Below the pieces are notes generated by a model, which was not told the DNA's origin, ran no database searches, and worked only from the letters and a program-made list of their open reading frames with translations. Source: a virus. From it: DNA of 55,526 bases. Location of the stretch: positions 1-55,526 of IMG/VR virus record IMGVR_UViG_3300022664_000329. One strand, 5' to 3'. The translations under genes and the position numbers were made by a program. Positions 22,201-34,695 of the stretch are shown one piece after another (position 1 is the stretch's first letter; every line of letters begins with the position of its first letter).

Positions 22201-25200
22201 GTGCCAAAACGCCGAAAACAAAAGAATCCCCCTACATGGCCGCGGTCGGACTGATTTCCGGCGGCCGCGCGGACCGCGCCGTTGCCCGCGGTTATGTTTT
22301 TGCCTATGGCCCGGCGGACGCCGCCACCCAAAGTGAAATGGTAGGCCTCTTTTCGGGTCTGGCCGCCGATAAGCTCATCGAGGCGGGGATTACGATAGAA
22401 CGCAAAACGCCCGCCGCCTTCAAGAAAGGCGACCGCGTGGTGATGAAAAACGGCCGCCACGGTGAAATTATCGCCGATGAAAGCTACACGATGATCGCGG
22501 CCACGATCTTCGGTGGGCAGAGAAACGTCGAGCGCTACGAAAATTACCGCGTCCGCACCGACGCCGGCGCAGAATTCGGGATGATCAAACCGGAGGACCT
22601 GACGAAGGAAACGGAAAAACCGGCCGAACCGGTGGTTCCGGACATAAAACTCATAGACGGTCATTTTAACGAACCGGACCGTGTTTTAAACCGAATCGCC
22701 CTGCATCAAAGCAATGAACAGAAAAAACGTGCTTCCGCACAACGGGCGCGAAAGCAGGATAACATTGATAAATTATTAGAAGCCGCAGAAAAAGAAAAGC
22801 GAATCGCTGCTGGTTTGCGCGCCCGCTATGACGAATGGGCCGCAAAGTATCCGGACGAAGCGGCCAAGCACGCCCCGGCCAAGACGCTGCCGCCCATCGG
22901 CCAGGTGCATCCGTCGATCCGGGAGAAGTATGCGGCAAAGCCGACTGCCGCAGCAGCAAAAGCATATCCGGACTTGACCGTGTCCGGTCACCCCAAACCC
23001 GTGCCGGATCATCCGGATGCCTCTTATGTGGTTCATATCCGCAAGCCGGACTTGATCCCTGACACTTTCCGCGTCGTTGTGTCTGCACAACGCGCGGCAG
23101 GCGGCGGTTTCCTGACGCAGGCCGGAACGGGCATGACTCCGGAACAGGCGTATGACAATGCCCTGGCCAACTACGACAGGACCATTGAAACGCGGCGATC
23201 CTCCACCAACCAGGACGCTGAGAGCGTCACGAACACAACCACACCCGTTGACAACGAAAAAACAAACGATTATAATAAGATTGAACAGGAGGCCCAAGAT
23301 GCCCCATCTGACCGACACGATACAGACGAAACATCGTCTGAAGATGATCGAGCAGGCGCTCAAGGACCAGGCACCCGAGATGTATCAGCAACTTCAGACG
23401 AAAGGTCAACTTCCGGAGTATCTCAAGGAACGCGACGCGCTGATGATGAACACGTTCGAGGTCCTGTTCGTGGAACTCTGCAAGCTGCCATCCGACACGA
23501 ATCCGACCTATCAGGAACAAGTCCAGCACCTGACTTCCGCACGCAACCGGGCGTGGGAAGAAACAATGGCGACGTGGCTGACGTTCAGCGATCCGCAGCC
23601 GGAGAGCGAACCGACCATGTCATCACCCCCGGCGCCATAGACCGTACCGGTTCCTGGTTCCAGACCGCCAAAAACAATCTCGACATCATCGAACTGGCAA
23701 AAAAAATCCAGACGGAAAACCGTCCGGCAACGCCCACCGAACAGGCGCTGCTTGCCCGCTATACGGGCTTCGGCGCGTCGGAAATCGCCAACCGGATGTT
23801 TCCCGGCTGGGCCGAAGCGGGCGAGATTCAACTCTGGCGCGCCGATCAAAAATGGAAGCCGCTGGTGGAACGCATGCAAAAGCTGTTTTCACCCGCGGAG
23901 ATCGCCACGGCCGCCCGCTCTACGCAATACGCGCATTACACCAGCCCGGCCATTATCGATTCGATCTACAAAGCGCTTGACGGCTTCGGCTTTCCCGGCG
24001 GCCGCGTCCTGGAACCGGGCATGGGCGTGGGCTCGTTTTTCGGTCTGATGCCGGAATCGATGCGGACGACAACAAAATATACCGGCATCGAAATGGACGG
24101 GATTACGGCGCAGATCGCCAAGCTCTTATATCCTCGCCAGAATATTATTGAAGGCGATTACACCAAGGCGCAGTTTCCAAATAATTATTTCGACCTGGCT
24201 ATCGGCAATCCTCCGTACGCCAAAACGATGATATTGGCCGATCCGGATTACAAGAAGCTGCGGTTGTCGCTGCATGACTTCTTTTTCGTCAAATCCCTGG
24301 ATAAAATCCGCCCCGGCGGGCTCATGGTGTTCATCACGTCGCGCTATACGATGGACAAGGTGGACAGCCGCGTGCGCAAAATCCTCAATGAAAAGTCCGA
24401 CCTCCTGGGCGCCGTCCGCCTGCCGCAAACGGCATTTGCAAAAAACGCCGGCACGGAAGTGGTAACAGACGTGATTTTTCTGCGCAAGAAAGTCCCCGGC
24501 GAAAAAAGCGCCGGGATGATGTGGGGCGAAGTCGCCCCGGTTACTACGCCGGAAGGCGATTTCCGCATCAATGAGTATTACCTGGCCCACCCCGAAATGG
24601 TTCTCGGCGATCATTCCGGCCGCGGCACAATGCAAAATTCCCGCGATCCGCAATACACGGTCCTGCCCCGCGAAGGCAATATCGAAGAGGCGTTTGCCCA
24701 GGCCGTCACCCATCTGCCCAAAGCCGTCTATTCCCTGATCAAAGCCGCGCCGGCGGTGCAGGAAGCCGCCGCGATCGAAAGGGACTTCAATCCACAAAAC
24801 AAGAAAGAAGGCGGCTTGTATCTGTCCCCCAACGGCCAGGTGATGGTCACGGAGTCCGGAGCCGGTGTGCCGATTACCGCTATCGCCCCGAAACTGTCAG
24901 ATAAAGACAGGCGCTGGTTGACGTCCTATATCACGCTCCGGGACGCGGTGAAGCAATGCCAGTATGACCAGCTCACCGACGGAGACTGGGAGTCGTCGCT
25001 CAAGGAACTCAACAGGGTGTACAAGGCCTTTAAAATGGCCTGGGGCCGCATCAATGCGTTTACGATCACTGAACGCAAATCCACGGACGAAGACGGAAAG
25101 GAAATCACCATCCATCTGCGCAAATTCGCCAACAGCCGCCTTTTGCGCCTGGATGTCGAATCGCCGCTGGTCATGGCGCTCGAAAAGGTGACGGAAGATT

Positions 25201-28200
25201 TCCAGATCGCCGACGGCCCGTTTCTTTCCAGCCGCACGATTAAAAAACCGGAACCGCCGCAAATCTCCACGGTCGCCGACGCCCTGGCCGTTTCGCTGAA
25301 TGAAAAGGGCCGGCTCGATCTCGCGCATATCGCGTCTCTCATGGGCGCCAGCGAAGCCGATGTCTTCGAGCAGCTGGGCGATCTGGTCTATGACACTCCG
25401 GATAAAGGCATTCAACTTGCCGACGCCTATCTGTCCGGCAATGTGGTGAAAAAGCTGGAGGAAGCCAAGGCCGCCGCGAAAATCGATCCCAAGTACGAAC
25501 GCAATGTGCAGGCGCTGATCGCGTCTTTGCCCAAGCCGCTGACCGCTAAAGACATTACGCCTTCTCCCGGCGCAACCTGGATTCCGCTGCCCGTGTATAA
25601 CGATTTTTTGCACGAGGTGCTTGAACTGCCCGAAAGCGCAGCCGCCGATCATTCCCCCGCCGACAACCAATGGACAATTTCCGGCCTGCCCGTGCAGTCG
25701 CAGCGCGGCCGCGCCTCCGCATGGTCATCACCCGACCGCGGCGCAAATGAAATTTTCTCTGCCGTTCTCAATAATGCGACGCTGAAGGTCTATAAGACGG
25801 AAAAAGTCGCCGGCGTTGAGAAGACGTATCTGGACCCGGCCGCGACGGCGCAGGTCAACGATATCGCCAAGAAGATGAAAATCCGTTTTCGCAACTGGGT
25901 ATGGGAAAACGCCGGCCGCGCGCACGAGCTCCTGAATATCTACAATTCCACCCGCAATAATATCGTGCCGCGGCGCTTTGACGGTTCGCACCTGACGCTG
26001 CCCGGCGTCTCTTTGCGCTTTAAGCTCATGCCGCACCAGAAAAACGCGATCTGGCGCATCATCCAGGACGGCAATACCTATATCGCCCACGCCGTCGGCG
26101 CAGGCAAGACGTATGAGATGGTCGCCGCCGGCATGGAAATGAAACGCCTGAGCCTGATTTCCAAACCGCTCTATGTGGTGCCCAACCATATGCTCCAGCA
26201 GTTTGCCAACGAGTTTCAGGAACTCTATCCGCTGGCGCATGTGATGGTGGCGGACGAGGAAAACTTCCATACGACGAACCGCCGCCGTTTCATGGCGCAA
26301 GCCGCCCTCAATAATCCCGATGCGATTGTGATCACGCATTCCGCTTTCGGTCTGTTAAAAATGAAGCAGGAAAACATCCTGCCGGTGCGCAATGACGTCG
26401 TCTCTGAAATGCAAGCCGCACTGGATGATCTCGAAGGCGATAAAAAAGCCAACCGCATCCGCATTAAACAGATGGAGGCGCGCATCGAACAGACCGAACA
26501 ACGTTTTGAATCCATGATCGCCCAGGGCGACAACGTCATTACGTTTGAAGATATGGGCGTTGATTTTCTGTTTGTGGACGAAGCCCACCAATTCCGCAAG
26601 CTGGATTTTACGACCAACCGCCAGGCCAAGGGCGTCGATCCGTCCGGGTCGGTCCGCGCTATGATGCTCTACATTAAAACACAATGGCTGGACCGTCAGA
26701 ACCCCGGCCGGTCCCACGTATTTGCCTCCGGCACGCCGATTACCAACACGATGGGAGAACTCTACACGGTAATGAAGTTTTTCGACATGGACGGGCTCCG
26801 GCGCGACGGCCTGGACTATTTCGATTCCTGGGCCGCGGAATACGGAGACATGAACTCCGCGCCCGAGATGAACGCCGCCGGCCGCTATGAGATTGTCGAT
26901 CGCTTTTCCCGTTTTGTGAATGTGCCGGAATTGATGAGCCGGGTCCGGTCGTTTATGGACGTTCTGACGTCCTCGCAGCTCGGCGCTTTTGTGAAACGGC
27001 CGAAAGTGCGCGGCGGACAGCCGACGATCGTGGTGACGCCGGCATCCCCCGCCCTCAAAAACTACCAGACGAATGTCCTGCTGCCGCGCATTGAGAGCAG
27101 CAAGAACTGGAAACCGAGTAAGGAGGAGCCCGGTAACCCCGACCCGCTCATCAATATCATCACGGACGGCCGCCTGGCGTCGATCGATATGCGGTTCGTC
27201 GCCCCCGGTTCTCCCAATGATCCGGACAGCAAACTCAATAAGTACATCGACAAGATTATTGAGCATTACAAGGAAACCGCAGGCCATACCTATCTGGACC
27301 CGGCCACGGGCCAGAAAAGCCCCGTTCGCGGCGCGGCGCAAATCTGTTTCTACAATCACGGATTCGGGCGCGGTGTGGCCTCCAGCCGCGGATTTGACGC
27401 CCGCGCCTGGGCCATGCGCCGCTTCAAGGAGGCGGGCATCCCGGTCGATGAAATCGCCTGGATTGACGATTTCGACACGGCCGCCAAAAAAGAAGCGGTG
27501 ATGAAAGAGGTCCGCAACGGCCACAAACGCATCCTGATCGGTTCGGCGAAGAAAATGGGCACGGGCATGAATGTGCAAACCAGGCTTTCTCACATGACGT
27601 ATCTGGATCCGCCCTGGTATCCGTCCGACGTCGAACAGCCGGTCGGCCGCATTCTGCGCCAGGGAAACCAAAACGAAGAAGTCGGCATTTTCTATTTTTC
27701 GACCAAGGGCAGCTATGACGCCACCATGTGGCAGATGGTGACGCGCAAGGCCAAATTCATTGAAGACGCTTTGGCCGGCGGCGGCGCCCGCGCCATCGAG
27801 GATATTTCCGAGTCGTCGCTTTACGAAATGGCCGCCGCCCTGGCCTCCGGCGATGAGCGCGCCATCCGTCTGGCCGGACTCAGAAACGAGATTGAAGGGC
27901 TGGAAAATCTGCGCTCCGCGCACTATCACACGCAGACGAATCTCCAACGTGAAAAACGTCTGTATGAAATCGGCCATCCGGGAAAAAAAGCGTATGTCGC
28001 CAAACTGGAAGCGGCGATGCAAAAAGTACCGTTCGATCTGCGATATTTATCCGCTCAGCATCCGATCAAGGCCAAACTCGGCCACCGGGACTATACGGAC
28101 CGCAAAGCTTTCGCCCAGGATCTCCTGGCGAAGATCGTGGCTCTGCGCAATGCCGGCACGGCAGGCACGACACCGATCGGCCATTTCTTCGGGCTGGAGT

Positions 28201-31200
28201 TGCGTGTTGTGCAGGCGCAGGGCGGAAACACGGAAGTGTGGGACCGCAGCGGACAGACGGAATTAATCCCCGGAAAGGTGGTCAATCAGCTCCAACTGCG
28301 CATTACGGATGATGTGATCTATGACGTCGCCAGCGATATCACGGATACGTCCGACGCGCCGGGCCTCGTGACCCGGCTCACGAACCGCGCTAAAGCCGTG
28401 CCTTCCGATCTGGCTCAGGCGAAACAATCACTGGAAGAAACCGAAACGGAACTTAAAAAGATCAACGCCCGTCTCGGCGCGCCTTTTGAGCTGGCGCGTG
28501 AACTGGAAGAAAAAATCGCCGAAGCGGCGCAGATTGACGCCGATCTGGTCCGCGAAGGACAGGCCACCGCCGCCGCACAACAACAGCAGCACACTGCGCC
28601 GGCGCAAACACCCGATCAGACTCCGCCCGACACTTCCGGGCCGATGCTTTCGCTCGAAGAAACTCCGATATTTTTCTCGCAGATGTCCCGCGTGCTCCAG
28701 GCGAAGCTCCCCGGCTCCGGAACGCCCGAACAGTACCGCTCCGCGATTGTCTCCTGGGCCAACAAGGGCGAATTCAAGGCCGACGAGTTGAAATGGTCCG
28801 GGCTCACCGACTGGCTGGTGGCGCAAAAAGGGAAGCTCGCCAAACAGCAGGTGCTCGATTATCTGGCGGCCAACGAAGTGCAGCTCCGGGAAGTGCATCT
28901 CTCCGACACCCCCTCCGATCCGCAGCTGGACCGTCTGAAAAACGCCTTTGCACAAGCCGAGGAGGGCGTACGGGCTATCGAGCAGGCGCTGGGCGCCCGT
29001 CCCTATATGTCCGGTGCGCCTCTGCGCTGGATGTACCGGCCGGACGACGAAGCGCCCCGGAATGTGCCGAAGCAGTATTTCGACACGCTGGACCGCTGGT
29101 CGGAAGCAAGACTCGACCTGGATGATTACCAGGCCACCCATGAAGGATTTTTTGAAGAAGATGAGGAAAGCACCGGCCGTACGCAATACTCTAATCAACA
29201 ACTTCCCGGCGGAAAGAATTACCGGGAACTGCTTTTGACGCTGCCGGAAAAGAAAACCGTCCCCACATTGAAGCACTCTTACCGTTCCGCCCATTGGAAC
29301 ACGCCCAATGTTCTGGCGCATGTGCGCTATAACGACCGGACGGATGCCAACGGGAACCGCGTCTTGTTTCTGGAGGAAGTCCAATCCGACTGGCATCAGG
29401 AAGGCAGAAAAAAAGGGTATGCTGACGACAAAATTACCAGGACGCCGCCGACCCGGGACGAAATAGCGCAAGAGATTTATGGTGCGCGATATGCGGACCT
29501 GGACACGGTAACGCAAAGCGCCGTCGATGGAGAACTTGACGCCAGAATTCATGGCACCGGCGGCGCCGCGCCTGCGACCAGCGGCATCAGTTACGTTCCG
29601 CCTGCGCCGTTTGCCAAGACCTGGCATGAGCTGGCCATGAAGCGGATGCTGCGCTATGCGGCTGAAAACGGCTACGACAAGGTGGCTTGGACCACGGGCG
29701 AACAGCAGAACGAGCGATACAATTTGAGTAAGCATATCGAGAGTATTGGTTACCACAAAAGGGGCGATTTGTTCGCGCTCACCGTTTGGGATAAAAAAGG
29801 CAAGGCTATATACCAAAATCAATCAACCACGAAGCAAGAGGTTGAGAACACCATCGGCAAAGAAATGTTGCAAAAGATGGAAGCCAATGTCGGACGCCGG
29901 GAAAATGGGAATTTTTACATTGAAGGTCTCGACCTGAAAGTCGGCGGCGAAGGAATGAAGGGCTTTTACGATACGATCCTGCCCGCCTTCGTGAATAAGT
30001 ATGCGAAAAAGTGGGGGGCGAAAGTCGGTACAGCGGATATCCGGACGGAAGCATTAAACAGGACGCCTGGAGCAGCTAAAGCTGATACGGTATCCGTGCA
30101 CGCGATCGACGTCACGCCCGCGATGAAAGAGTCCGTCCTGACCGGGCAGCCGATGTTTTCGCGCCAGGATAAAACAGCCCACCGGCGCCCCCATCGTCTG
30201 GGCGACGTGGAGCTGGATGAGATGGTGCAGCAGCTCGCGGCGCTGCTCAAGGGCGTGAAAATTGTCAAACACGGAAACGAAATCCGGCTCAAAACCCGAT
30301 CCGGTGAGGAAGTCCGGATCGAATCCGCCGAGCAGATCGATCCGGACACCATCGCGCTGGCCATCAAGAAGCATTATTCGCAGGATAAGAAGCAGACGCC
30401 GCAATCCGGCGCAGGCGTGGCCGGTATGTATTCGGCGGGCAAGATCACGCTGGTGGAGGATGTGGCGGGCATCTGGACGCTGTCCCATGAGTTTTATCAT
30501 TTCCTCGAAGACATCGGCGCGATATCCAACGCCGACAAGGCAACGCTGAACCGCAAAATTGCATATCTCGTCACGTCTCAACCCGAAACCTATGGCTATC
30601 TGCAGGAGCGGTCGCTCCCCGAACAGCGGGCCGATTACGTGGGCCGCACGCTCACGGGCATGTATGACGCGACGACGCCGACCGGCACGATCCTGGCGCG
30701 CATCCGCGAAGTCATCGACCGCATTCTCAACGCGCTCGGCATCCGGACGGCCCGCGGCATCCTGCGCGATATTGAAACCGGGAAGATTTATAAGGACCAA
30801 GGGGAAAGGAACAAGGGGCAAGAGAAAGGGAAAACTCCCCTCCTCCGGCAGGATATTGACAACATCCGGGAACGGGCTTATACTTATGGTGAAGGAGGTA
30901 AGCATGAGACATCTGTATCCGATTCCGGATTCGACGGAGAAGGTAGCCGGCAGTATCCCGGACGAGACGCCGCCTTACGGTTCCAGCCGACCGTCGTCGG
31001 CCGCGAAAAGAAAGGCTCCATCCCGGCCGCAGGACGCATCGTCCGAACACCACACGACGCCGCGAAAATCGCAGCAACGTATCTAAACAAGTATCCAGAT
31101 GAACACATGATTTCCCTTGTCCTTGATGCCAAGGGCAAGGTCATCTCCGTGTATCATCACACCAGCGGCCTGCCCGGAAACTCCCAGGCATCGATGCCGA

Positions 31201-34200
31201 TTCTCGCCGGCGAAGCCATGAATACCCCCGGCGCGTCATCTATTATTGTTGCCCATAACCATCCGTCCCAAAACGCTGAATTTTCGCCAGAAGACCGTGC
31301 ATTTGCCCGCCAACTGAACAACTTATTGACCGGCTCCGGCGTGACCATGCGGGATTTTCTGGCAGTTGCACAGAAACAATATTCTTCTTACAGCGAAAAT
31401 ATGCTCGTTTATGTCGACGACAGCGTTGACATAAACAGCGCCAGATCAGGAGTAAAAATCCCTATTGTTGGCCGAATCTTTGAATCGGTACGCTCTCCCC
31501 TCCTCAAGGTTTCGTCCGCCGAGGATGCCTTGCCGCTGGCGCAGCAGTATATCCCCGACGGTGGAACATTGATATTGGATGGCCAAAACGCCCTTGCCGG
31601 TTTTTCCACTATTCAGAACTATGGACGAATTCGCGGCGACGCGCAGCGGGCTATTTTGCAGGATATCGAAAAACGAAACGGCCGCGCCATGATCGTCTAT
31701 TCCCCCGGTCGTATCGTCGGCACAGCCGAATCTTTTAATCTCGGGAAGTTTATTGCTGCAACCGGCGGCCAGGTCCGCCTGTTAGATATTATTGATTCGT
31801 CCGGCTCTCACGCGGACAATGGGGATATGCCCGCGATTCCCACGGCAGATTCCAGCTTGTTTTTGTCCGTTGCCGAAGATGTCACCGAAAAAGCGGCAGA
31901 CGCCGTCGGGCGCAAAGTCTCCCGCGCGGTCGATCTGATCACGGGGCGCGTATCTCCCGAAAAACGGGAGACGCTTTCCGCCCTGCGCAAAAGCTGGGCG
32001 GAATTCTGGCGGCCGTTTTCGACGGTGACAAACGGCGAGGAGGTCCTGGCCCGCCGCTATGAATCGATGGGCAATGTGGCCAAGGCGGTGCGGTTTATCG
32101 AGACGATGAAGGCGGAACTGGATCAGTTCCCGCCGGAAACGAAGAAAGATATTTTCTGGTATCTGAACGGCGACATTCCGCTGACCGTCCTGCCGGAAGA
32201 CGCCCAGACTTTTGCGAAAAATATTCATCGCCGGACGGAAATTATCGGTGAAATGCTGGTGGACCGCGGGCTCCTGACGGAAGAAACCTTTGAGGCACAC
32301 AAAGGCACGTACGTTCACTACCTTTACGCCAAGCATATCGTGGGCGAAGATGCGCCCGTGGGCATTACGTCGTCGGGCAAGCTGGATCTGTCCTACACGC
32401 TCCGGCGCAATCCCGATCTGACGATGCAGCAACGCAAGGAGCTGGGCCTGATCGACGATGCTTCCGTCGCCGTGCCGGTGGGCATGGGCAAGGCGCTCAC
32501 GGATATTGCGAAGTTCGATTACCTGGAGACGATCGCGGAAAATCCCGACTGGGTCTGGCAGCCGTCCGTGGTGCGTGTGGCCGTGGGCAAAAAGCTCAAG
32601 ACGCCGGTGATGGGCCGGACGCGGCGCTATGTGATGATGGGCATCGGCAAACTCCAGGAACAGGTCCGCACGTATGACGAGATGATGCGGACGCGGCCGA
32701 CTACCGAAGTGGCGGAGATCCACAAAATCCTCACGGACGCCTGGCAAAAAGAGCAGGCCAAGACGCAAAACGCGCCCGCCGACTTCGTGCAGCTGCCCAA
32801 CACGCGCGGCTACGGGCCGCTCGCGGGCGCCTTCGTCAAAAAGCCGATCGCGGACGATCTGCGCCCGGTGATGGATGTCAATACGGACCGCGGCAAACTG
32901 CTCAACACGGTTCTGGAAATCGAACGCCAGGGCATGGCGGCGTTCAAGATGGGGAAAGTCGCGCTCAATATTCCGACGGCCTGCCGTAATATCGTGTCCA
33001 ACATCATTCAGAACAACATGCGCGGCCGCGCGCTGGCGAAGATCCCCGGCGATATCGTGGCCGCCTGCCAGTCGATGAAAGCCAGGGACGCTCATTATGA
33101 AGAGGCGTTCGGCATGGGGCTGTTCCATACGAATTGGTTCGTGACGGAAATCAACGATGTGCTCCAGGAATTCCGCAAGATCGAGTCCGGCCGGATCGAT
33201 CAAATCCTGTCTGCGGTGAAAAACGTGGCGAAGTATTACGGCCGGATTGACGATATCAGCAAGTTTGCGATCTTTCTGCAGATGCGCAAAGCCGGCGCTC
33301 CGATCGACAAGGCCGCGATCGAAGCCATGAAATGGGGAATGGACTATTCGCTCACGTCGCGCTCGATCAAGGGGCTGCGCCAGACGATCATGCCGTTTGC
33401 GACGTACCAGTATAAGATCGCTCCGCTCATCGCCGAATCGCTGCGCAAGCGGCCCTGGGTGCTCGCCAAGTTCGCGCTGATTTATCCGGCGGCCAAGCTC
33501 GCGGCGATGGCGCTGCACGATCTGGACGACGATGACTGGGAGGACCTGGAAAAACAGCTGCCGGCCTATATCAAGAAGTCCGGCTCGATGATGATTCTGC
33601 CCTGGAAGACGGATCAGGATCAATGGCAGTGGGTGAATCTGGAGTATTATTTCCCGTTCGGCAATATGCTGGCGATTTTCCGCGATGCCAAGGCGCTGGA
33701 TTCCGGCGAGGCGCTGCGCGATCTGGGCATTTCCAATCCGTTTCTATCCATGTTCTACACCGGGCTTTCGGCCCGCGAGGATTCTCCGCCCTTGCATGCG
33801 TATTCCGGCATTCCGATTTACAATGAGCTCGATCCGGGATGGATGAAGGCGGCAAAATATCTGGAGTACATGGCCAATACGTGGCTGCCCGGCATGCTCA
33901 CGCGCCAGGGCGCCCTGGGCTACACGGGCAAAGCGATTGCCGGCGGCGAGGACCGCTGGGGCCGCGAGGTGTCGTTCGGCCAGGCGCTCGGCCGCTGGTT
34001 CGGTTTCAATATTGTCTCGGTGTCGCCCGAGCAGTCCCGCGCGCAGGTGGCGGTGAAGATCCAGGATCTGCACAAGGAGATGGCCCGGATCGAGGCCGAT
34101 CCGTCCCGCAGCGACGAAGCTAAGGCGGAATACCGCGCCCGGATGAATGAAGAGTTGTCGCAGATGGCCGAGCAGGCGCCGGCCGCCGTGCTGCCGATCA

Positions 34201-34556
34201 CGAAGGCCAAGGGGCCCGATCCGGTTTATGACGCGCTGCGCACCATGGCCGCCCGCGGCATTCTGCACACCGGTCCGCCGTCGCGGACGCTGGAGATCGG
34301 CGGCATTCCGCGAAAAATGACGCTGGAGCAGTACCGGGAATATCTGGACCGCTCAAGCGATATCGCGCGGCGCAAACTGGCTGCGCTGGTGACGTCGCCG
34401 TCGTGGGAGACGATGACGGATGAACGAAAAACGCAGGTGGTCTCCGGCATTGTCGCCAACGCCCGCAAGGCGATCCGGCAAAAAATAAAGGCGCAGCTGG
34501 CCCGCGAATTCCGCGGACAACAGTTCCGGCCGCAAAATAGCGAAAAAAGGAGTTGA
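16269..34556 (+). CDS. Giant polyvalent virion-associated protein (6,095 aa): DarB-like N6-adenine DNA methyltransferase + SNF2/DEAH helicase core, flanked by many other modules including HExxH peptidase-like and RadC/JAB domains
   Basis: Uninterrupted 18,288-nt ORF with a GGAGG SD 8 nt upstream. Motifs read in the translation: EPGMGVGSFFG and NPPY (MTase I/IV); AHAVGAGKT, FVDEAH and QPVGRILRQGN (SF2 helicase I, II, VI); SHEFYH (HExxH); IIVAHNHPS...SPED (JAB/RadC). Position corresponds to T7 gp16. Confidence 0.85.
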   Translation: MPDTDRRNHHDIGYGEDFYRALDPHYHAPAALPEAKSNNDAGYGEDFYRTLDPDAPATQKSPAVKTPLQNAPEQRGFFKEAASALASGAVSTAEALTSTAEMIGVPGAERASSYLRGVQESEALVRPDYLRSGTVLDEPARLADWRWWTRTVGENIPNALAMLVPAGAVSKLGQIGKLGTLLKGSATARRAAALGAGFSASFPLEAGSAYSSAKQEMSATGQYDADTIERIATAEGLVAGTTNAIIELLPIDSLLFKQSGGDRLLRRILRQAYIEGGTETVQEAVNILVEQYGHAPDATLKDQIGRVIEAGLAGGVIGGGFGATIGTAEHRAKTNAYLAIAHKTDLDEDIVRWKQEDLPDKNIAELVSARLDDYRRSAAPDETTQIPAKIDAAEMVSFVLYGSGRFQPDRSGAKKKAAVLRAMGMKPKTPPAEMPMTTSAADGKAVITEEQRAQAQNERAAANRKAQGKTLFDAVASEDLAETQAIEQARQDDEARRNAETVRLAAAEQASRDKAVADAQSRQDALIARLAGADPQKQALVQDVLGLSERALLSAVQKELKLTVTPAGPGAYTVETPGGPQPADLFDLRQRLAEKRSADFTARQDEEAANAAAVRRMEEEQARKKREREAAAALDMSRRSLVASLSGPTPQQLAHLNANRQRLTPDEIARLDRWMKKDRDSAPVSPPPAPRPPAVISEEVNAAAKAAPPPKQDNGQDDEAALVDLMLSDVANARKGGELRTDDAGETIRDTAGIAWLTAANRAGADVTVKDAKTVLNKVKTGEDLTERQQRQLTAILDAMRAAGGAKVTQALSWAKKGYIPVDNRRIAVRDMVEGDSYVIDNEEFRVTDIDDAGNVTLKDGTIKKVRDGEMLTGVDFVKPVEGAEDFSGESFDDAMKRVESEAEPPQAPPVPESRKTPPASVAVTTGLKTKAPEKRDISQLAGDLAAGRIAPGKFTFPADVTPQEINEVWDDLSAAVENIAKKNEPFIRALHEEIDALGPARTAAIKAQKKALLDKIRALQDEADALDRKITNAFEGAQAQLLDTIIERAKAEGLFIDDAESEEVYELYSTLQEGRSHDPLFIDGKIPEDYVNTWTVPLAEQILDELRAQQPTGDAYPVPNSSGVYNEKQKKAEVISFPQNKAFDAAVYVLQVGPEEWISAEDVSLKTGSYAGQSSPLTKNPVFPTRKAALADALKTVQQFGESNARDASSPATDKSRKAAAQIAQWAEKQYLELYPPSQAPSQAVAVTTGLKKTPETAPPPIIKRILDIYGRYHYVDQNELQGDRTILKTYNSRGERLLAGGGIHRGYIVNQEDTSAVEKARKVARLRSLETKAQKEMLTDGEIKETKSLIAEIYNKPVEKPSEPATIPDVTPPKGTADIPAKITPQAEAWKDKIEADVKDGWYIHGRRGTDDLLSEFKKHEIFVSKEADVAEDYAGNKGSIWQLRPKKTANILDATDDIQRTEVVDRLKEQYESGDLNNGAYTKLSQEIDDEIESYGEGKAWERISESLNPKDIVEDEGFYSDTDFVNWLYENFEYDFVSTNRGGVAYNPDAFDLKKFNPNPSRPPEVGGQSVNLSTEDLFGAVEKAVTTGLKPKKAAALPPEMPIIRARLQHLKSLGVNTAGYDEWVKVMESGDAAALANEPPAQDTLRAINLTIAEEEKILKAQAQEKGFGAGNTLFTEDKAAKARAILKAKLSGAQLNAGIDPEILTAGIDLAGYYIEGGVRKFADFTAKMVEDIGEQIRPYLKSLYLAVRNYPGFDNAGMETEADIEKSLTAAAATDKIAAKGEKSHADSSDLDAGAAGNAPAVAASARQAEQNAGRLPEDVRAVVSGIEGQARREGSEVPQGVNLPAEIQAHAEQYLYHATYAEKIAGINAAGLDPTKSNQYIYGNDTTKRVYLSPDQELSLAFGDVLLRVRRSALNQKLLKEIARQGGQEVWYFDRIAPSLIERLTPRGEWAALSAQTEKIPQSVAVTTGAKTPKTKESPYMAAVGLISGGRADRAVARGYVFAYGPADAATQSEMVGLFSGLAADKLIEAGITIERKTPAAFKKGDRVVMKNGRHGEIIADESYTMIAATIFGGQRNVERYENYRVRTDAGAEFGMIKPEDLTKETEKPAEPVVPDIKLIDGHFNEPDRVLNRIALHQSNEQKKRASAQRARKQDNIDKLLEAAEKEKRIAAGLRARYDEWAAKYPDEAAKHAPAKTLPPIGQVHPSIREKYAAKPTAAAAKAYPDLTVSGHPKPVPDHPDASYVVHIRKPDLIPDTFRVVVSAQRAAGGGFLTQAGTGMTPEQAYDNALANYDRTIETRRSSTNQDAESVTNTTTPVDNEKTNDYNKIEQEAQDAPSDRHDTDETSSEDDRAGAQGPGTRDVSATSDERSTSGVSQGTRRADDEHVRGPVRGTLQAAIRHESDLSGTSPAPDFRTQPGVGRNNGDVADVQRSAAGERTDHVITPGAIDRTGSWFQTAKNNLDIIELAKKIQTENRPATPTEQALLARYTGFGASEIANRMFPGWAEAGEIQLWRADQKWKPLVERMQKLFSPAEIATAARSTQYAHYTSPAIIDSIYKALDGFGFPGGRVLEPGMGVGSFFGLMPESMRTTTKYTGIEMDGITAQIAKLLYPRQNIIEGDYTKAQFPNNYFDLAIGNPPYAKTMILADPDYKKLRLSLHDFFFVKSLDKIRPGGLMVFITSRYTMDKVDSRVRKILNEKSDLLGAVRLPQTAFAKNAGTEVVTDVIFLRKKVPGEKSAGMMWGEVAPVTTPEGDFRINEYYLAHPEMVLGDHSGRGTMQNSRDPQYTVLPREGNIEEAFAQAVTHLPKAVYSLIKAAPAVQEAAAIERDFNPQNKKEGGLYLSPNGQVMVTESGAGVPITAIAPKLSDKDRRWLTSYITLRDAVKQCQYDQLTDGDWESSLKELNRVYKAFKMAWGRINAFTITERKSTDEDGKEITIHLRKFANSRLLRLDVESPLVMALEKVTEDFQIADGPFLSSRTIKKPEPPQISTVADALAVSLNEKGRLDLAHIASLMGASEADVFEQLGDLVYDTPDKGIQLADAYLSGNVVKKLEEAKAAAKIDPKYERNVQALIASLPKPLTAKDITPSPGATWIPLPVYNDFLHEVLELPESAAADHSPADNQWTISGLPVQSQRGRASAWSSPDRGANEIFSAVLNNATLKVYKTEKVAGVEKTYLDPAATAQVNDIAKKMKIRFRNWVWENAGRAHELLNIYNSTRNNIVPRRFDGSHLTLPGVSLRFKLMPHQKNAIWRIIQDGNTYIAHAVGAGKTYEMVAAGMEMKRLSLISKPLYVVPNHMLQQFANEFQELYPLAHVMVADEENFHTTNRRRFMAQAALNNPDAIVITHSAFGLLKMKQENILPVRNDVVSEMQAALDDLEGDKKANRIRIKQMEARIEQTEQRFESMIAQGDNVITFEDMGVDFLFVDEAHQFRKLDFTTNRQAKGVDPSGSVRAMMLYIKTQWLDRQNPGRSHVFASGTPITNTMGELYTVMKFFDMDGLRRDGLDYFDSWAAEYGDMNSAPEMNAAGRYEIVDRFSRFVNVPELMSRVRSFMDVLTSSQLGAFVKRPKVRGGQPTIVVTPASPALKNYQTNVLLPRIESSKNWKPSKEEPGNPDPLINIITDGRLASIDMRFVAPGSPNDPDSKLNKYIDKIIEHYKETAGHTYLDPATGQKSPVRGAAQICFYNHGFGRGVASSRGFDARAWAMRRFKEAGIPVDEIAWIDDFDTAAKKEAVMKEVRNGHKRILIGSAKKMGTGMNVQTRLSHMTYLDPPWYPSDVEQPVGRILRQGNQNEEVGIFYFSTKGSYDATMWQMVTRKAKFIEDALAGGGARAIEDISESSLYEMAAALASGDERAIRLAGLRNEIEGLENLRSAHYHTQTNLQREKRLYEIGHPGKKAYVAKLEAAMQKVPFDLRYLSAQHPIKAKLGHRDYTDRKAFAQDLLAKIVALRNAGTAGTTPIGHFFGLELRVVQAQGGNTEVWDRSGQTELIPGKVVNQLQLRITDDVIYDVASDITDTSDAPGLVTRLTNRAKAVPSDLAQAKQSLEETETELKKINARLGAPFELARELEEKIAEAAQIDADLVREGQATAAAQQQQHTAPAQTPDQTPPDTSGPMLSLEETPIFFSQMSRVLQAKLPGSGTPEQYRSAIVSWANKGEFKADELKWSGLTDWLVAQKGKLAKQQVLDYLAANEVQLREVHLSDTPSDPQLDRLKNAFAQAEEGVRAIEQALGARPYMSGAPLRWMYRPDDEAPRNVPKQYFDTLDRWSEARLDLDDYQATHEGFFEEDEESTGRTQYSNQQLPGGKNYRELLLTLPEKKTVPTLKHSYRSAHWNTPNVLAHVRYNDRTDANGNRVLFLEEVQSDWHQEGRKKGYADDKITRTPPTRDEIAQEIYGARYADLDTVTQSAVDGELDARIHGTGGAAPATSGISYVPPAPFAKTWHELAMKRMLRYAAENGYDKVAWTTGEQQNERYNLSKHIESIGYHKRGDLFALTVWDKKGKAIYQNQSTTKQEVENTIGKEMLQKMEANVGRRENGNFYIEGLDLKVGGEGMKGFYDTILPAFVNKYAKKWGAKVGTADIRTEALNRTPGAAKADTVSVHAIDVTPAMKESVLTGQPMFSRQDKTAHRRPHRLGDVELDEMVQQLAALLKGVKIVKHGNEIRLKTRSGEEVRIESAEQIDPDTIALAIKKHYSQDKKQTPQSGAGVAGMYSAGKITLVEDVAGIWTLSHEFYHFLEDIGAISNADKATLNRKIAYLVTSQPETYGYLQERSLPEQRADYVGRTLTGMYDATTPTGTILARIREVIDRILNALGIRTARGILRDIETGKIYKDQGERNKGQEKGKTPLLRQDIDNIRERAYTYGEGGKHETSVSDSGFDGEGSRQYPGRDAALRFQPTVVGREKKGSIPAAGRIVRTPHDAAKIAATYLNKYPDEHMISLVLDAKGKVISVYHHTSGLPGNSQASMPILAGEAMNTPGASSIIVAHNHPSQNAEFSPEDRAFARQLNNLLTGSGVTMRDFLAVAQKQYSSYSENMLVYVDDSVDINSARSGVKIPIVGRIFESVRSPLLKVSSAEDALPLAQQYIPDGGTLILDGQNALAGFSTIQNYGRIRGDAQRAILQDIEKRNGRAMIVYSPGRIVGTAESFNLGKFIAATGGQVRLLDIIDSSGSHADNGDMPAIPTADSSLFLSVAEDVTEKAADAVGRKVSRAVDLITGRVSPEKRETLSALRKSWAEFWRPFSTVTNGEEVLARRYESMGNVAKAVRFIETMKAELDQFPPETKKDIFWYLNGDIPLTVLPEDAQTFAKNIHRRTEIIGEMLVDRGLLTEETFEAHKGTYVHYLYAKHIVGEDAPVGITSSGKLDLSYTLRRNPDLTMQQRKELGLIDDASVAVPVGMGKALTDIAKFDYLETIAENPDWVWQPSVVRVAVGKKLKTPVMGRTRRYVMMGIGKLQEQVRTYDEMMRTRPTTEVAEIHKILTDAWQKEQAKTQNAPADFVQLPNTRGYGPLAGAFVKKPIADDLRPVMDVNTDRGKLLNTVLEIERQGMAAFKMGKVALNIPTACRNIVSNIIQNNMRGRALAKIPGDIVAACQSMKARDAHYEEAFGMGLFHTNWFVTEINDVLQEFRKIESGRIDQILSAVKNVAKYYGRIDDISKFAIFLQMRKAGAPIDKAAIEAMKWGMDYSLTSRSIKGLRQTIMPFATYQYKIAPLIAESLRKRPWVLAKFALIYPAAKLAAMALHDLDDDDWEDLEKQLPAYIKKSGSMMILPWKTDQDQWQWVNLEYYFPFGNMLAIFRDAKALDSGEALRDLGISNPFLSMFYTGLSAREDSPPLHAYSGIPIYNELDPGWMKAAKYLEYMANTWLPGMLTRQGALGYTGKAIAGGEDRWGREVSFGQALGRWFGFNIVSVSPEQSRAQVAVKIQDLHKEMARIEADPSRSDEAKAEYRARMNEELSQMAEQAPAAVLPITKAKGPDPVYDALRTMAARGILHTGPPSRTLEIGGIPRKMTLEQYREYLDRSSDIARRKLAALVTSPSWETMTDERKTQVVSGIVANARKAIRQKIKAQLAREFRGQQFRPQNSEKRS
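16305..16427 (+). repeat. Two copies of a 12-aa / 36-nt repeat, GYGEDFYR[AT]LDP, at the N-terminus of the giant protein
   Basis: 16305-16340 and 16392-16427 are nearly identical at the nucleotide level. Confidence 0.8.
19032..19055 (+). repeat. Linker motif VAVTTGLK, copy 1
   Basis: gtcgccgtgacgacggggctgaaa. The 14-nt core gccgtgacgacggg is shared by all four copies. Confidence 0.9.
20004..20027 (+). repeat. Linker motif VAVTTGLK, copy 2
   Basis: gtcgccgtgacgacggggctgaag. Confidence 0.9.
21033..21053 (+). repeat. Linker motif AVTTGLK, copy 3
   Basis: gccgtgacgacggggctgaaa. Confidence 0.9.
21646..21819 (+). CDS. Embedded 57-aa ORF in the +1 frame of the giant ORF (MPIHLTLTPEQQETLQRLQPLLDKQNKTPEDYRKMSELLYPELKAKLAAKGVKFPKA)
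   Basis: GGGAG SD lies 9 nt upstream. By hand count, 47 of 57 codons end in G/C in this frame, against 18 of 57 in the giant frame over the same nucleotides. The giant-frame translation here is Ala/Gly/Ser-rich shadow-like sequence. Confidence 0.5.
   Translation: MPIHLTLTPEQQETLQRLQPLLDKQNKTPEDYRKMSELLYPELKAKLAAKGVKFPKA
22185..22208 (+). repeat. Linker motif VAVTTGAK, copy 4
   Basis: gtggccgtgacgacgggtgccaaa. Confidence 0.9.
23299..23640 (+). CDS. Embedded 113-aa ORF in the +1 frame of the giant ORF, TnpV-like by recollection
   Basis: Perfect AGGAGG (23287-23292) lies 6 nt before the ATG and is preceded by an AT-rich intergenic-looking stretch. About 73% of codons end in G/C in this frame. 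The pattern LKDQAPEMYQQLQTKGQLPEYLKERD resembles the LKEHxPxLYxxLxxxGKLxEHLxExD core of TnpV-type proteins. The giant-frame translation here is S/T/D/R/G-rich. Confidence 0.6.
   Translation: MPHLTDTIQTKHRLKMIEQALKDQAPEMYQQLQTKGQLPEYLKERDALMMNTFEVLFVELCKLPSDTNPTYQEQVQHLTSARNRAWEETMATWLTFSDPQPESEPTMSSPPAP
24012..24218 (+). other. N6-adenine DNA methyltransferase catalytic motifs within the giant ORF
   Basis: Motif I EPGMGVGSF at 24012-24038. Motif IV NPPY at 24207-24218. Confidence 0.8.
26097..26589 (+). other. SF2 (SNF2/DEAH) helicase motifs I and II within the giant ORF
   Basis: GAGKT at 26097-26111. DEAH at 26578-26589. Motif VI QPVGRILRQGN lies further downstream, near 27640. Confidence 0.8.
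30486..30500 (+). other. HExxH (HEFYH) zinc-metallopeptidase-like motif within the giant ORF
   Basis: Codons cat gag ttt tat cat, read directly. Context: TLSHEFYHFLEDIG. Confidence 0.5.
30856..30906 (+). promoter_or_regulatory. Near-consensus promoter + SD + ATG inside the giant ORF, with the ATG in the +1 frame
   Basis: TTGACA (30856-30861), 17-nt spacer, TATACT (30879-30884), AGGAGG (30893-30898), 5 nt, ATG (30904-30906). Confidence 0.45.
31254..31268 (+). other. RadC/JAB (JAMM-type) HNHPS motif within the giant ORF
   Basis: IIVAHNHPSQNAEFSPEDRAFARQL, preceded by the typical RadC core (ISLVLDAKGKVISVYHHTSG). Confidence 0.7.
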
Positions 34557-34582
34557 TTTGGAGTTTTTTTTTACGCTATAAT
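34553..34582 (+). promoter_or_regulatory. Sigma70-like promoter TTGATT-N18-TATAAT overlapping the stop codon of the giant gene
   Basis: Hexamers read directly. Paralogous to 16117-16145. Confidence 0.4.
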
Positions 34583-34603
34583 ATTTCAACAATTAGATGA
34601 TGT

Positions 34604-34622
34604 TCCGGATTGATCACCCGGA
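34604..34622 (+). promoter_or_regulatory. Dyad-symmetric box TCCGGatTGATCAccCGGA (copy B)
   Basis: Copy of 16154-16172. Confidence 0.4.
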
Positions 34623-34633
34623 TAACCCAACCC

Positions 34634-34669: not shown

Positions 34670-34695
34670 GATTAACCGAACCCAGGGAGGTCAAT

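What the first reader, a model, noticed from the sequence alone, without database searches (positions are those of the whole stretch)
30795..31086. Near-consensus promoter, SD and out-of-frame ATG inside the giant ORF, just upstream of the RadC/JAB module
TTGACA-N17-TATACT is followed by AAGGAGGT and, 5 nt later, an ATG at 30904. This complete expression signal lies between the end of the HExxH module (..RDIETGKIYKDQ) and the RadC module. The ATG is in the +1 frame and opens only a 60-aa ORF, which turns S/P/R-rich after about 20 residues. The RadC domain is encoded in the giant frame from about 30970 onward (ALRFQPTVVGREKKGSIPAAGRIVRTPHDAAKIAATYL). Either this is the fossil start of a once-separate RadC-plus-C-terminal gene; or an indel or programmed frameshift about 60 nt downstream of the ATG lets the promoter express the last ~1,200 aa independently; or the promoter drives a short regulatory peptide or RNA.
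Basis: seen in the sequence. Interest (0 to 1): 0.7.

Follow-up and report, generated by a model that had tools for sequence, protein, structure and literature searches.

The report
Small gene nested in giant gene
Inside a 6,095-codon phage gene sits a complete promoter, ribosome-binding site and start codon, conserved in distant relatives, that most likely expresses a ~60-residue peptide from a second reading frame; giant multi-enzyme ("polyvalent") phage genes can therefore hide separately expressed small genes in their linkers.

Summary
TTGACA-N17-TATACT, AAGGAGGT and an ATG in the +1 frame lie at 30856-30906, at the 5' edge of a RadC cassette (30822-31862) that the closest relatives lack.

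Relatives that carry the cassette are only 44-50% identical in protein. All of them keep TTGACA, the 17-nt spacer and TAT of the -10 while the surrounding linker diverges. Every one also has a +1-frame ATG, either 5-7 nt after the -10 (leaderless type) or 19-22 nt after it behind a GGAG site.

Among 41 more distant RadC modules embedded in long ORFs, promoter-like sites pile up at this one offset. Four of five further homologues that I picked from their peptide pattern had the predicted promoter plus ATG in their DNA.

Synonymous variation in the giant frame is suppressed from the promoter to the +1 stop (observed/expected 1.70, z = 8.1; flanks about 1.0). No conserved RNA structure, slippery site or in-frame start was found.

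Best reading: a selected internal promoter that drives a nested ~60-aa +1 ORF carrying a conserved Tyr-Pro motif. The fossil and frameshift readings are not supported. A second perfect internal promoter at 23248 drives a TnpV-like +1 ORF. There are no expression data.

The parts
16269..34556 (+). Host gene: a 6,095-aa polyvalent-protein ORF (Eco57I-type methylase, SNF2/ResIII helicase, HExxH peptidase module, RadC/JAB, large C-terminal module). It lies after the virion genes of a temperate SU10-like phage.
30822..31862 (+). RadC cassette: linker, RadC/JAB domain and a degenerate RadC-like second domain. The closest relatives (P0001, P0002) lack it, and P0003 and P0005 carry other inserts at the same spot. 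The promoter sits at its 5' edge.
30856..30861 (+). -35 hexamer TTGACA, encoded by aTT GAC Aac (I-D-N). Invariant in all cassette-bearing relatives.
30879..30884 (+). -10 hexamer TATACT (TAT ACT = Y-T; ACT is 8% of Thr codons in this ORF). Relatives have TATAAT, TATCCT, TATGTT or TATAGC, always with the 17-nt spacer.
30891..30892 (+). Predicted transcription start, 7-8 nt after the -10 (inferred, not measured).
   Evidence: inference from promoter geometry
30892..30899 (+). Shine-Dalgarno AAGGAGGT (codons GAA GGA GGT = E-G-G). It lies in a 4-codon stretch that the leaderless-type relatives lack.
30904..31086 (+). Nested +1-frame ORF of 60 codons plus TAA (MRHLYPIPDSTEK...QQRI). It overlaps the linker and the first ~40 codons of the RadC module.
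30916..30921 (+). TAT CCG, the Tyr-Pro of the nested peptide. YP is kept in 10 of 13 lineages with synonymous variants (TAT/TAC, CCG/CCC), while the giant frame reads VSD, ISD, VSA, LSE, VPD, VPE or VSP.
30810..31086 (+). Stretch of suppressed synonymous variation in the giant frame. It falls back to baseline at the +1 stop.
31044..31400 (+). RadC-like JAB domain (Pfam PF04002, 65 bits) with the AHNHPSQNAEFSPED metal motif, in the giant frame.
23248..23640 (+). Second nested unit in the same giant ORF: TTGACA-N17-TATAAT (12/12), CAGGAGG, ATG 23299 (+1 frame), and a 113-aa TnpV-like helical ORF over a low-complexity stretch of the giant frame.
21594..21819 (+). Third candidate unit: TTGACC-N17-TAAAAT (10/12), GAAGGGAG, ATG 21646 (+1 frame), and a 57-aa ORF over an Ala/Gly-rich linker.

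Best explanation
This is a self-contained expression unit written into the coding sequence of a giant late gene.

Proposed mechanism: a sigma-70-type promoter (30856-30884) in the disordered linker just before the RadC module lets host RNA polymerase start at about 30891. The 12-13-nt leader carries a strong Shine-Dalgarno site. Ribosomes start at ATG 30904 and read 60 codons in the +1 frame, across the linker and the first ~40 codons of the RadC module, stopping at 31086. The product is a small, probably disordered peptide with a conserved Tyr-Pro motif near its N-terminus and a basic Ser/Pro/Arg/Lys-rich tail.

Because the promoter is of host type, the peptide can be made independently of late transcription of the 18-kb gene, for example early in infection or in the lysogen.

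Shown here: the signals exist; they are conserved by selection in relatives; the ORF is kept open; and the host frame is synonymously constrained exactly over the unit.

Inferred: that transcription and translation actually occur, when they occur, and what the peptide does. A role tied to the RadC module is likely, because the unit travels with that module.
For: 1. Signals in the window. Three sites score at least 11/12 (0.26 expected). All three have GGAGG-N3-9-ATG downstream (0.005 expected). One of them is an ordinary intergenic promoter of a minus-strand gene (50089), so the host evidently reads this consensus.

2. Conservation in close relatives. Loci L006, L091, L087/L095, L088-L090 and L029 are 44-50% identical in protein. 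All keep TTGACA, the 17-nt spacer and TAT of the -10, and two are perfect 12/12 matches. Linker residues diverge around them.

3. Codon choice. The synonymous codons that the hexamers need have usage-based probabilities of 0.009, 0.065, 0.12, 0.003 and 0.010 in five lineages.

4. Linkage to the cassette. Relatives without the RadC cassette have no promoter-like site at the junction.

5. Distant modules. In 41 non-redundant embedded RadC modules from IMG/VR, 7 promoter-like hits fall in the one 60-nt bin that matches the window's offset. The other 55 bins hold 0-2 hits each (mean about 0.5), and the minus strand is flat. The hexamers sit in different codon phases and are encoded by different residues.

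6. Prediction test. Five further homologues were chosen from their peptide pattern alone. Four have TTGAC[AG]-N18-TA[AG][AG]AT plus an ATG exactly 6 nt later in the +1 frame.

7. Start codons. In 11 of 13 promoter loci, the only ATGs within 45 nt of the -10 are in the +1 frame. They lie at +5 to +7 (leaderless geometry) or at +19 to +22 behind GGAG. The ORFs are 48-79 aa.

8. Synonymous constraint. Same-codon pairs are 131/201 inside 30856-31086 against 484/1233 in the flanks (Fisher p = 8e-12). Corrected for codon bias, observed/expected is 1.70 (z = 8.1) against 1.02-1.11 in the flanks.

9. Open frame. The joint probability that the +1 frame stays open in five lineages is about 1e-3.

10. 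Peptide conservation. The +1 peptides are 40-50% identical, as high as the host frame. YP occurs within the first 30 residues in 10 of 13 lineages, against 4% of control windows (p = 4e-12). Its variants are synonymous in the +1 frame and non-synonymous in the giant frame.

11. RNA alternatives. There is no conserved RNA structure and no Rfam match.

12. Precedent in the same ORF. The perfect promoter at 23248 with an SD drives a +1 ORF that matches Pfam TnpV (E = 3e-4) and folds as confident helices.
Against: - There are no transcript, ribosome or peptide data.
- Nei-Gojobori pN/pS is about 1 in both frames over the linker, so classical purifying selection on the peptide is not shown.
- The peptide is predicted to lack secondary structure and has no database homologues. 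A short-motif HMM did not pick out further members significantly.
- One lineage has a -10 without the final T (TATAGC), and another has a weak TATCCT.
- Only about 17% of distant embedded RadC modules show the promoter.
- Only 4-5 close lineages were available, and the pairwise counts are not independent.
- The five homologues of the prediction test were chosen by pattern, not at random.
- The YP motif and the giant-frame [VI]S[DE] motif occupy the same bases and are partly confounded.
- No terminator follows the ORF.
Confidence: 0.68

Rival explanations
1. The promoter is real and selected, but the functional product is a non-coding RNA or the act of transcription itself (for example activating or priming something, or helping DNA entry). 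The +1 ORF would be translated only incidentally or not at all.
For: pN/pS is about 1 in the +1 frame. The peptide is predicted to be disordered and has no homologues. Conservation is spread over all three codon positions in the linker. At least one perfect internal promoter in a relative (L099, position 4723) has no ATG behind it.
Against: The +1 start codon is conserved with either leaderless or SD geometry in 11 of 13 loci. The +1 frame is kept open (joint p about 1e-3). The constraint ends at the +1 stop. The YP motif shows +1-synonymous variation. There is no conserved RNA structure (covariation term +0.92), no Rfam match and no terminator.
Confidence: 0.14
2. It is a fossil: the RadC cassette was captured as a whole gene together with its promoter, SD and ATG, and these are now decaying, non-functional remnants read through as linker.
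For: The element sits exactly at the 5' edge of a cassette that the closest relatives lack. Standalone radC genes exist. Only a minority of distant embedded modules retain a recognisable promoter.
Against: The hexamers, spacing and ATG are intact in lineages whose synonymous sites are saturated in the flanks (observed/expected about 1.0), and the rare codons are retained. Amino-acid changes keep the DNA motif: N to S to R keeps the first-position A, and T, N, P and V all have a third-position T. The ATG is in the wrong frame for RadC in every lineage. The +1 N-terminus is not similar to the in-frame linkers or N-termini of other RadC proteins.
Confidence: 0.06
3. The promoter and ATG express the RadC and C-terminal ~1,200 aa on their own, through a programmed frameshift or transcriptional slippage from the +1 frame into the giant frame shortly after the ATG.
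For: The ATG lies about 23 codons upstream of the RadC module, a natural N-terminal distance. The +1 motif P-x-Y ends just where giant-frame conservation begins. The standalone homologue P0143 starts MKEYPMPP, which loosely resembles the +1 peptides.
Against: There is no X XXY YYZ heptamer and no homopolymer run between the ATG and the module start in any lineage. There is no conserved stimulatory structure. The resemblance to P0143 is not significant (E = 0.78). The synonymous constraint and the open +1 frame extend about 100 nt beyond any such shift point, to a shared stop.
Confidence: 0.04
4. It is a peptide-level motif of the polyprotein, for example a processing site [IV]-D-N...Y-x-Y...V-S-D, or plain chance, that only happens to spell a promoter, an SD and an ATG.
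For: The giant-frame peptide ID[NSR]xxE.AY..[VI]SD is recognisable in the close relatives. V-D-N-x5-Y-N recurs at 23248. Polyvalent proteins are thought to be cut by their own peptidases (PMC5512222).
Against: In distant loci the hexamers are encoded in other codon phases and by other residues (L-T; F-D-N and D-I-I; L-D-K and V-K-S). Synonymous positions inside the hexamers never vary, whereas the residue after them varies freely. A peptide motif would not suppress synonymous change for 230 nt. The chance expectation for the full signal is 0.005 per window.
Confidence: 0.04

Closest known systems
Embedded phage genes such as lambda Rz1 inside Rz (+1 frame), or phiX174 E inside D (own knowledge)
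   Same: A short ORF lies wholly inside a longer gene in the +1 frame, has its own ribosome-binding site, and encodes a small Pro-rich or low-complexity product typical of overprinted genes.
   Different: Those embedded genes are translated from the host gene's own mRNA. This ORF has a dedicated sigma-70 promoter inside the coding sequence. It lies in the linker of an 18-kb multi-domain gene and moves with one domain cassette (RadC) between different giant genes.
Morons of lambdoid prophages: autonomous promoter-gene-terminator units inside late operons (Hendrix and colleagues, own knowledge)
   Same: A host-type promoter and a small gene are placed among the late or virion genes of a temperate phage, so the gene can be expressed independently of late transcription.
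   Different: Morons sit between genes and carry a terminator. This unit is inside a gene, in another reading frame, and no terminator was found.
Leaderless lambda cI mRNA from promoter PRM (own knowledge)
   Same: Several relatives place the ATG 5-7 nt after the -10, so the transcript would begin at or next to the AUG.
   Different: The window itself uses a 12-13-nt leader with a strong SD. Leaderless use in the relatives is inferred from geometry only.
Polyvalent proteins of phages and conjugative elements (Iyer et al. 2017, PMC5512222)
   Same: The host gene fits this class: methylase, SNF2 helicase, zincin-like peptidase and RadC/JAB in one polypeptide next to virion genes. Relatives carry Pfam families PF18760, PF18796, PF18819 and PF18857; PF18796 (LPD1) and PF18819 (MuF_C) are named.
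   Different: That paper treats these as single polypeptides. It has no occurrence of the words 'promoter', 'overlapping' or 'TnpV'. Nested, separately promoted ORFs in the linkers are not part of the description.

Membership tests
Sigma-70-type bacterial promoter | -35 and -10 hexamers close to TTGACA and TATAAT, 17 +/- 1 nt apart, with A2 and T6 of the -10 present | tested here: met
   TTGACA-N17-TATACT scores 11/12. The window has 3 such sites against 0.26 expected.
Sigma-70-type bacterial promoter | Hexamers and spacing conserved in relatives beyond the surrounding sequence | tested here: met
   TTGACA, N17 and TAT are invariant in 7 aligned sequences at 44-50% protein identity. Hits are enriched at this position in 41 distant loci. 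The prediction was fulfilled in 4 of 5 new loci.
Sigma-70-type bacterial promoter | The host polymerase recognises this consensus | tested here: inconclusive
   An intergenic TTGACA-N17-TATATT with AAGGAGGAG and ATG precedes a minus-strand gene at 50089. The host is inferred to be Smithella/Syntrophus. No biochemical evidence exists.
Sigma-70-type bacterial promoter | A mapped transcription start site | not testable with these tools
   Needs dRNA-seq, 5'-RACE or a reporter fusion.
Overlapping (nested, overprinted) protein-coding gene | An ORF entirely inside a longer ORF in another frame, with its own start signals | tested here: met
   ORF 30904-31086 in the +1 frame, with SD AAGGAGGT 4 nt upstream.
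Overlapping (nested, overprinted) protein-coding gene | Start codon and open frame preserved in relatives | tested here: met
   A +1 ATG is present in 11 of 13 promoter loci, and the ORFs are 48-79 aa. The joint probability of openness is about 1e-3. L010 and L021 share the same 59-aa ORF.
Overlapping (nested, overprinted) protein-coding gene | Reduced synonymous variation of the host frame across the overlap only | tested here: met
   Observed/expected same-codon ratio is 1.70 (z = 8.1) inside, against 1.02-1.11 in the flanks. It falls to baseline at the +1 stop.
Overlapping (nested, overprinted) protein-coding gene | Purifying selection on the nested protein | tested here: inconclusive
   pN/pS is about 0.7-1.3. 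Against that, the YP motif is conserved with +1-synonymous variants (p = 4e-12), and +1 peptide identity is 40-50%.
Overlapping (nested, overprinted) protein-coding gene | Product detected | not testable with these tools
   Needs ribosome profiling or mass spectrometry.
Moron (autonomous unit in a prophage late region) | Own promoter upstream of the gene | tested here: met
Moron (autonomous unit in a prophage late region) | Own factor-independent terminator downstream, and a position between genes | tested here: not met
   There is no plus-strand terminator-like site between 31086 and 31716. The unit lies inside a gene.
Programmed -1 ribosomal frameshift site | Slippery heptamer X XXY YYZ in the incoming frame before the RadC module | tested here: not met
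   The +1 frame was read in the window and in four relatives, and none has one before the module start. A G AAA AAG occurs only in L088, inside the conserved VVGREK.
Programmed -1 ribosomal frameshift site | Conserved downstream stimulatory structure | tested here: not met
   RNAalifold consensus is -11.4 kcal/mol over 227 columns, with a covariation term of +0.92.
Polyvalent protein (Iyer et al. 2017), host gene | Several unrelated enzymatic domains in one phage polypeptide next to virion genes | tested here: met
   Eco57I methylase, ResIII/SNF2 and RadC by Pfam. Homologues carry the Pfam families PF18760, PF18796, PF18819 and PF18857. Portal, capsid and adaptor genes lie upstream.
RadC-like JAB domain (PF04002) | Pfam score above the gathering cut-off, and the HxHPx(n)SxxD metal motif | tested here: met
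   65.1 bits against a cut-off of 22.1. The motif AHNHPSQNAEFSPED is present.
TnpV (PF14198), for the second nested ORF 23299-23640 | Pfam score above the gathering cut-off | tested here: inconclusive
   21.1 bits (E = 3.2e-4) against a cut-off of 27. The match covers profile positions 28-104 of 111. The single-sequence AlphaFold model is helical, with pLDDT 82-91 over residues 11-50.

The most novel reading that the evidence does not exclude
Giant polyvalent-protein genes are not single genes. They serve as scaffolds whose disordered linkers routinely carry separately promoted small genes in the +1 frame. This ORF has at least two and probably three: 21646, 23299 (TnpV-like) and 30904. Another giant gene (L103) has a perfect promoter, SD and an 88-aa +1 ORF over a Gly/Glu-rich linker. 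The basic 'YP' peptide is a conserved, co-transferred partner of the RadC/JAB module, for example an inhibitor, regulator or targeting factor made from a host-type promoter before or without the late giant protein.
Probability: 0.4. Interest if true: 0.8.

Novelty: new variant of a known kind. Interest (0 to 1): 0.72.

Why it matters
Gene callers never report ORFs nested in the same strand of a longer gene. Any small proteins encoded this way in the largest phage genes are therefore invisible in current annotations.

A conserved host-type promoter inside an 18-kb late gene would mean that parts of these counter-defence genes are read on a different schedule from the polyprotein itself. It would also give the enigmatic RadC/JAB module a genetically linked partner that can be tested directly.

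The comparative signature found here is a reusable recipe for finding more such units:
- hexamers kept by rare codons;
- a switch between leaderless and SD-led starts;
- synonymous constraint that ends at the nested stop.

Tried and rejected
- Phage GenBank records by blastn and tblastn: no match.
- First IMG/VR scan with the single protein: none.
- Word-indexed protein search with the cassette: one weak hit.
- The contig of the 99% relative P0122 is not on record. Its extra Tyr codon next to the -10 (RERAYYTYGEGG) could therefore not be read at DNA level.
- The +1-peptide alignment found no database proteins.
- The TnpV-like ORF found nothing in plasmids or IMG/VR, and its model found nothing in the PDB.
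- Rfam: none.

Ideas rejected:
- Conserved RNA structure.
- Programmed frameshift: no slippery site.
- Termination-reinitiation at Met 31107: that Met is not conserved in relatives.
- The +1 N-terminus as the ancestral in-frame N-terminus of RadC: best E = 0.78.
- Paralogy among the three internal promoter sites of this ORF: no similarity beyond the motifs.
- Recent recombination as the cause of low synonymous divergence: non-synonymous divergence in the overlap is not reduced.

Inconclusive:
- pN/pS in either frame.
- Codon-position periodicity in the linker.
- HMMs of the +1 N-terminus or the YP motif against six-frame translations gave suggestive but non-significant hits.
- The rare-codon table at the YP site is partly circular, because I aligned on the Tyr. 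The window-frequency test replaces it.
Full report
**The observation.** The sequence reads as described.
- -35 TTGACA at 30856-30861, a 17-nt spacer, and -10 TATACT at 30879-30884.
- AAGGAGGT at 30892-30899, then four bases, then ATG at 30904.
- The ATG is in the +1 frame of the 6,095-codon ORF 16269..34556.
- It opens 60 codons and ends at TAA 31084-31086.

Simulation of the whole window expects 0.26 sites scoring at least 11/12, and 0.005 such sites followed by GGAGG-N3-9-ATG. The window has three of each. One is an ordinary intergenic promoter of a minus-strand gene at 50089, so the host evidently uses this consensus. The other two, at 23248 and 30856, lie inside the giant ORF.

**Context.** The window is a temperate phage.
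- SU10-like portal, adaptor and capsid genes and a large terminase subunit are present.
- A D5-type primase, a tyrosine integrase and a serine resolvase are present.
- Relatives come from anaerobic digesters and activated sludge, and from Syntrophus and Smithella bins.

The giant ORF is a polyvalent protein in the sense of Iyer et al. 2017 (PMC5512222). It has an Eco57I-type methylase, a ResIII/SNF2 helicase, an HExxH peptidase module, RadC/JAB and a large C-terminal module.

BLASTP of the closest relatives against the giant protein shows that P0001, P0002 and P0005 align up to residue ~4851 and resume at ~5199. Nucleotides 30822-31862 are therefore a cassette inserted at a variable slot:
- P0001 and P0002 have only a short linker there.
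- P0003 carries a phosphoribosyltransferase-like insert.
- P0005 carries something else.

The promoter sits at the 5' edge of this cassette. Cassette-less relatives have no promoter-like site at the junction.

An exhaustive profile search shows that the RadC-plus-second-domain unit is an internal module of hundreds of giant proteins: 1,803 cluster representatives at E < 1e-3.

**Conservation of the promoter.** Six loci carry the same cassette at 44-50% protein identity: L006, L091, L087 (= Smithella MAG L095), L088/L089 and L090. L029 is more distant. At the homologous place they read as follows:

| Locus | -35 | Spacer | -10 | Score |
|---|---|---|---|---|
| L006, L091 | TTGACA | 17 | TATAAT | 12/12 |
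| L088-L090 | TTGACA | 17 | TATCCT | 10/12 |
| L029 | TTGACA | 17 | TATGTT | 10/12 |
| L087 | TTGACA | 17 | TATAGC | no final T |

In the seven-sequence alignment TTGACA and TAT are invariant, while the spacer and the flanking peptide diverge.

The hexamers are held by particular synonymous codons: xTT for Ile/Val, GAC, TAT, and a T-ending codon for a variable residue (ACT, AAT, CCT, GTT). The usage-based probabilities are 0.009, 0.065, 0.12, 0.003 and 0.010 in five lineages. Amino-acid replacements preserve the DNA motif.

**Distant modules.** I anchored 41 non-redundant embedded RadC modules from IMG/VR on the module start.
- Seven promoter-like hits of at least 9/12 fall in the single 60-nt bin that corresponds to the window's offset.
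- Each of the other 55 bins holds 0-2 hits (mean about 0.5). My Poisson estimate is about 1e-6.
- Exact TTGACA shows the same peak, and the minus strand is flat.
- The hexamers there lie in other codon phases and are encoded by other residues. This rules out a peptide motif.

**Prediction test.** From peptide patterns alone ([IV]-D-x...[VI]-[EKR]-Y) I predicted a promoter in five further homologues and then fetched their DNA. Four of the five have TTGAC[AG]-N18-TA[AG][AG]AT (10-11/12) at offsets -128 to -185.

**What the promoter serves.**
- No start codon in the giant frame follows the promoter before Met 31107, which lies inside the RadC fold and is not conserved.
- In 11 of 13 promoter-bearing loci, the only ATGs within 45 nt of the -10 are in the +1 frame.
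- Those ATGs lie either 5-7 nt after the -10, a leaderless geometry with C-A at the start, or 19-22 nt after it behind a GGAG-type site.
- The SD-type lineages differ from the leaderless ones by a four-codon stretch that contains the SD.
- The +1 ORFs are 42-79 aa.

Given each lineage's giant-frame protein and codon usage, the +1 frame would stay open with probability 0.58, 0.29, 0.13, 0.39 and 0.13. The joint probability is about 1e-3.

**Synonymous constraint.** Among aligned pairs with the same amino acid in the giant frame:
- The same codon is used in 131/201 pairs within 30856-31086, against 484/1233 in the flanks (Fisher p = 8e-12).
- A plateau runs from about 30810 to 31050 and decays to baseline at about 31070-31090, the +1 stop.
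- Corrected for each lineage's codon bias, the flanks give observed/expected of 1.02-1.11. Synonymous sites there are saturated and the lineages are effectively independent.
- The element gives 1.70 (z = 8.1). The part that overlaps the conserved RadC N-terminus alone gives z = 6.2.
- Non-synonymous divergence is not reduced there, so recent recombination does not explain the pattern.

RNAalifold finds no conserved structure and Rfam finds nothing.

**Peptide or RNA?** Classical pN/pS is about 1 in both frames over the linker. This is what dual constraint gives, but it proves nothing.

Points in favour of a peptide:
- The +1 peptides of the close lineages are 40-50% identical, as high as the host frame.
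- Across 15 lineages the peptides share a basic N-terminal stretch followed by Tyr-Pro.
- YP lies within the first 30 residues in 10 of 13 independent lineages, against 4.2% of control +1 windows (p = 4e-12).
- Its codons vary synonymously (TAT/TAC, CCG/CCC), while the giant frame at the same bases reads VSD, ISD, VSA, LSE, VPD, VPE or VSP.

Points against a folded protein:
- AlphaFold predicts no secondary structure.
- No database protein matches.

Low complexity and Ser/Pro/Arg richness are usual for overprinted genes (PMC6195259 for the general point; the details are my own knowledge).

**Interpretation.** The best-supported reading is a selected internal host-type promoter that drives a nested +1 small ORF travelling with the RadC cassette.
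- The fossil reading fails on conservation.
- The frameshift reading fails on the absence of any slippery site or stimulatory structure, and on the constraint that continues to the +1 stop.
- The resemblance of the +1 N-terminus to the standalone RadC protein P0143 (MKEYPMPP...) is not significant.
- Transcription, translation, timing and function remain inferences.

**A wider pattern.**
- The perfect promoter at 23248 (V-D-N-x5-Y-N) is followed by CAGGAGG and ATG 23299 in the +1 frame. This opens a 113-aa ORF that matches Pfam TnpV (E = 3.2e-4, below the gathering cut-off). It folds as confident helices from a single sequence. It lies over a low-complexity Asp/Ser/Thr/Gly/Arg stretch of the giant frame.
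- A third unit at 21594/21646 opens a 57-aa helical-looking +1 ORF over an Ala/Gly-rich linker.
- Another giant gene (L103) has TTGACA-N16-TATAAT, TAAGGAGG and an 88-aa +1 ORF over a Gly/Glu-rich linker.
- Iyer et al. 2017 do not mention promoters or overlapping genes.

Nested, separately promoted genes in the linkers of polyvalent-protein genes may therefore be general. That is the most novel reading the evidence allows.

Noticed in passing
window 23248-23640: A perfect TTGACA-N17-TATAAT sits inside the giant ORF, followed by CAGGAGG and ATG 23299 in the +1 frame. The 113-aa ORF matches Pfam TnpV (E = 3.2e-4, below the gathering cut-off) and is predicted helical. The giant frame over it is low-complexity. 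It is probably a real nested gene.
   Followed up: partly
window 21594-21819: TTGACC-N17-TAAAAT (10/12), GAAGGGAG and ATG 21646 (+1 frame) open a 57-aa ORF (MPIHLTLTPEQQETLQRLQPLLDK...) over an Ala/Gly-rich linker. It has a weak PHROG Arc-like hit (E = 0.02). The single residue that differs from the 99% relative P0122 in this stretch (V to A in the giant frame) would be a silent TTG to CTG change in the +1 frame if it is a single-base change.
   Followed up: partly
window 30822-31862 versus P0001, P0002, P0003, P0005: The slot between the HExxH module (..RDIETGKIY) and the C-terminal module (..SLAEDxxE..) is a hotspot for cargo. Relatives have nothing there, a phosphoribosyltransferase-like insert, another unknown ~350-aa insert, or the RadC cassette.
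   Followed up: partly
window 31401-31862: The ~150 aa after the RadC domain resemble the RadC N-terminal half weakly (E = 0.015) but lack the HNHPS metal motif (AMIVYSPGR instead). This looks like a degenerate tandem RadC-like domain. The pair is conserved as a unit in hundreds of giant proteins.
   Followed up: partly
loci L013, L020, L031, L032, L034, L044, L065 and others, 30-100 nt upstream of the RadC module: Many linkers just upstream of embedded RadC modules carry QLDLF-, QIDLF- or GDLF-type motifs that resemble the beta sliding-clamp-binding motif QL[SD]LF. The window's own linker lacks one.
   Followed up: no
L099 position 4723; L006 position 5920; L103 position 6658: Other giant polyvalent ORFs also contain perfect or near-perfect sigma-70 sites. 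Two lie at a homologous spot at the end of the methylase domain (IIIDNTGKSDYNK and LVIDKPAANKDNK) with no ATG behind them. One (L103) has TAAGGAGG and an 88-aa +1 ORF over a Gly/Glu-rich linker.
   Followed up: partly
window 34553-34700: TTGATT-N18-TATAAT overlaps the stop codon of the giant ORF. It is followed by a strong hairpin plus T-run (about 34640-34668) and then GGGAGG-ATG at 34697. This is a promoter with a leader terminator ahead of the next gene block.
   Followed up: no
L001-L005 (contigs of P0001): In the closest cassette-less relative, the homologous gene starts only ~25 residues before the HExxH motif, after an AT-rich non-coding stretch, and is followed by a PIN-domain gene. 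Five independent assemblies all break within ~170 nt upstream of it.
   Followed up: no
window, about 30-32 kb: The cumulative GC skew of the window reaches its broad minimum near 30-32 kb, around the element. This is probably a transcription or codon-usage effect and was not examined.
   Followed up: no
P0122 (99% relative), residues ..RERAYYTYGEGG..: The near-identical relative has one extra Tyr codon right at the -10. If the codon is TAT, the promoter becomes TTGACA-N17-TATTAT and is preserved. The DNA was not retrievable.
   Followed up: partly
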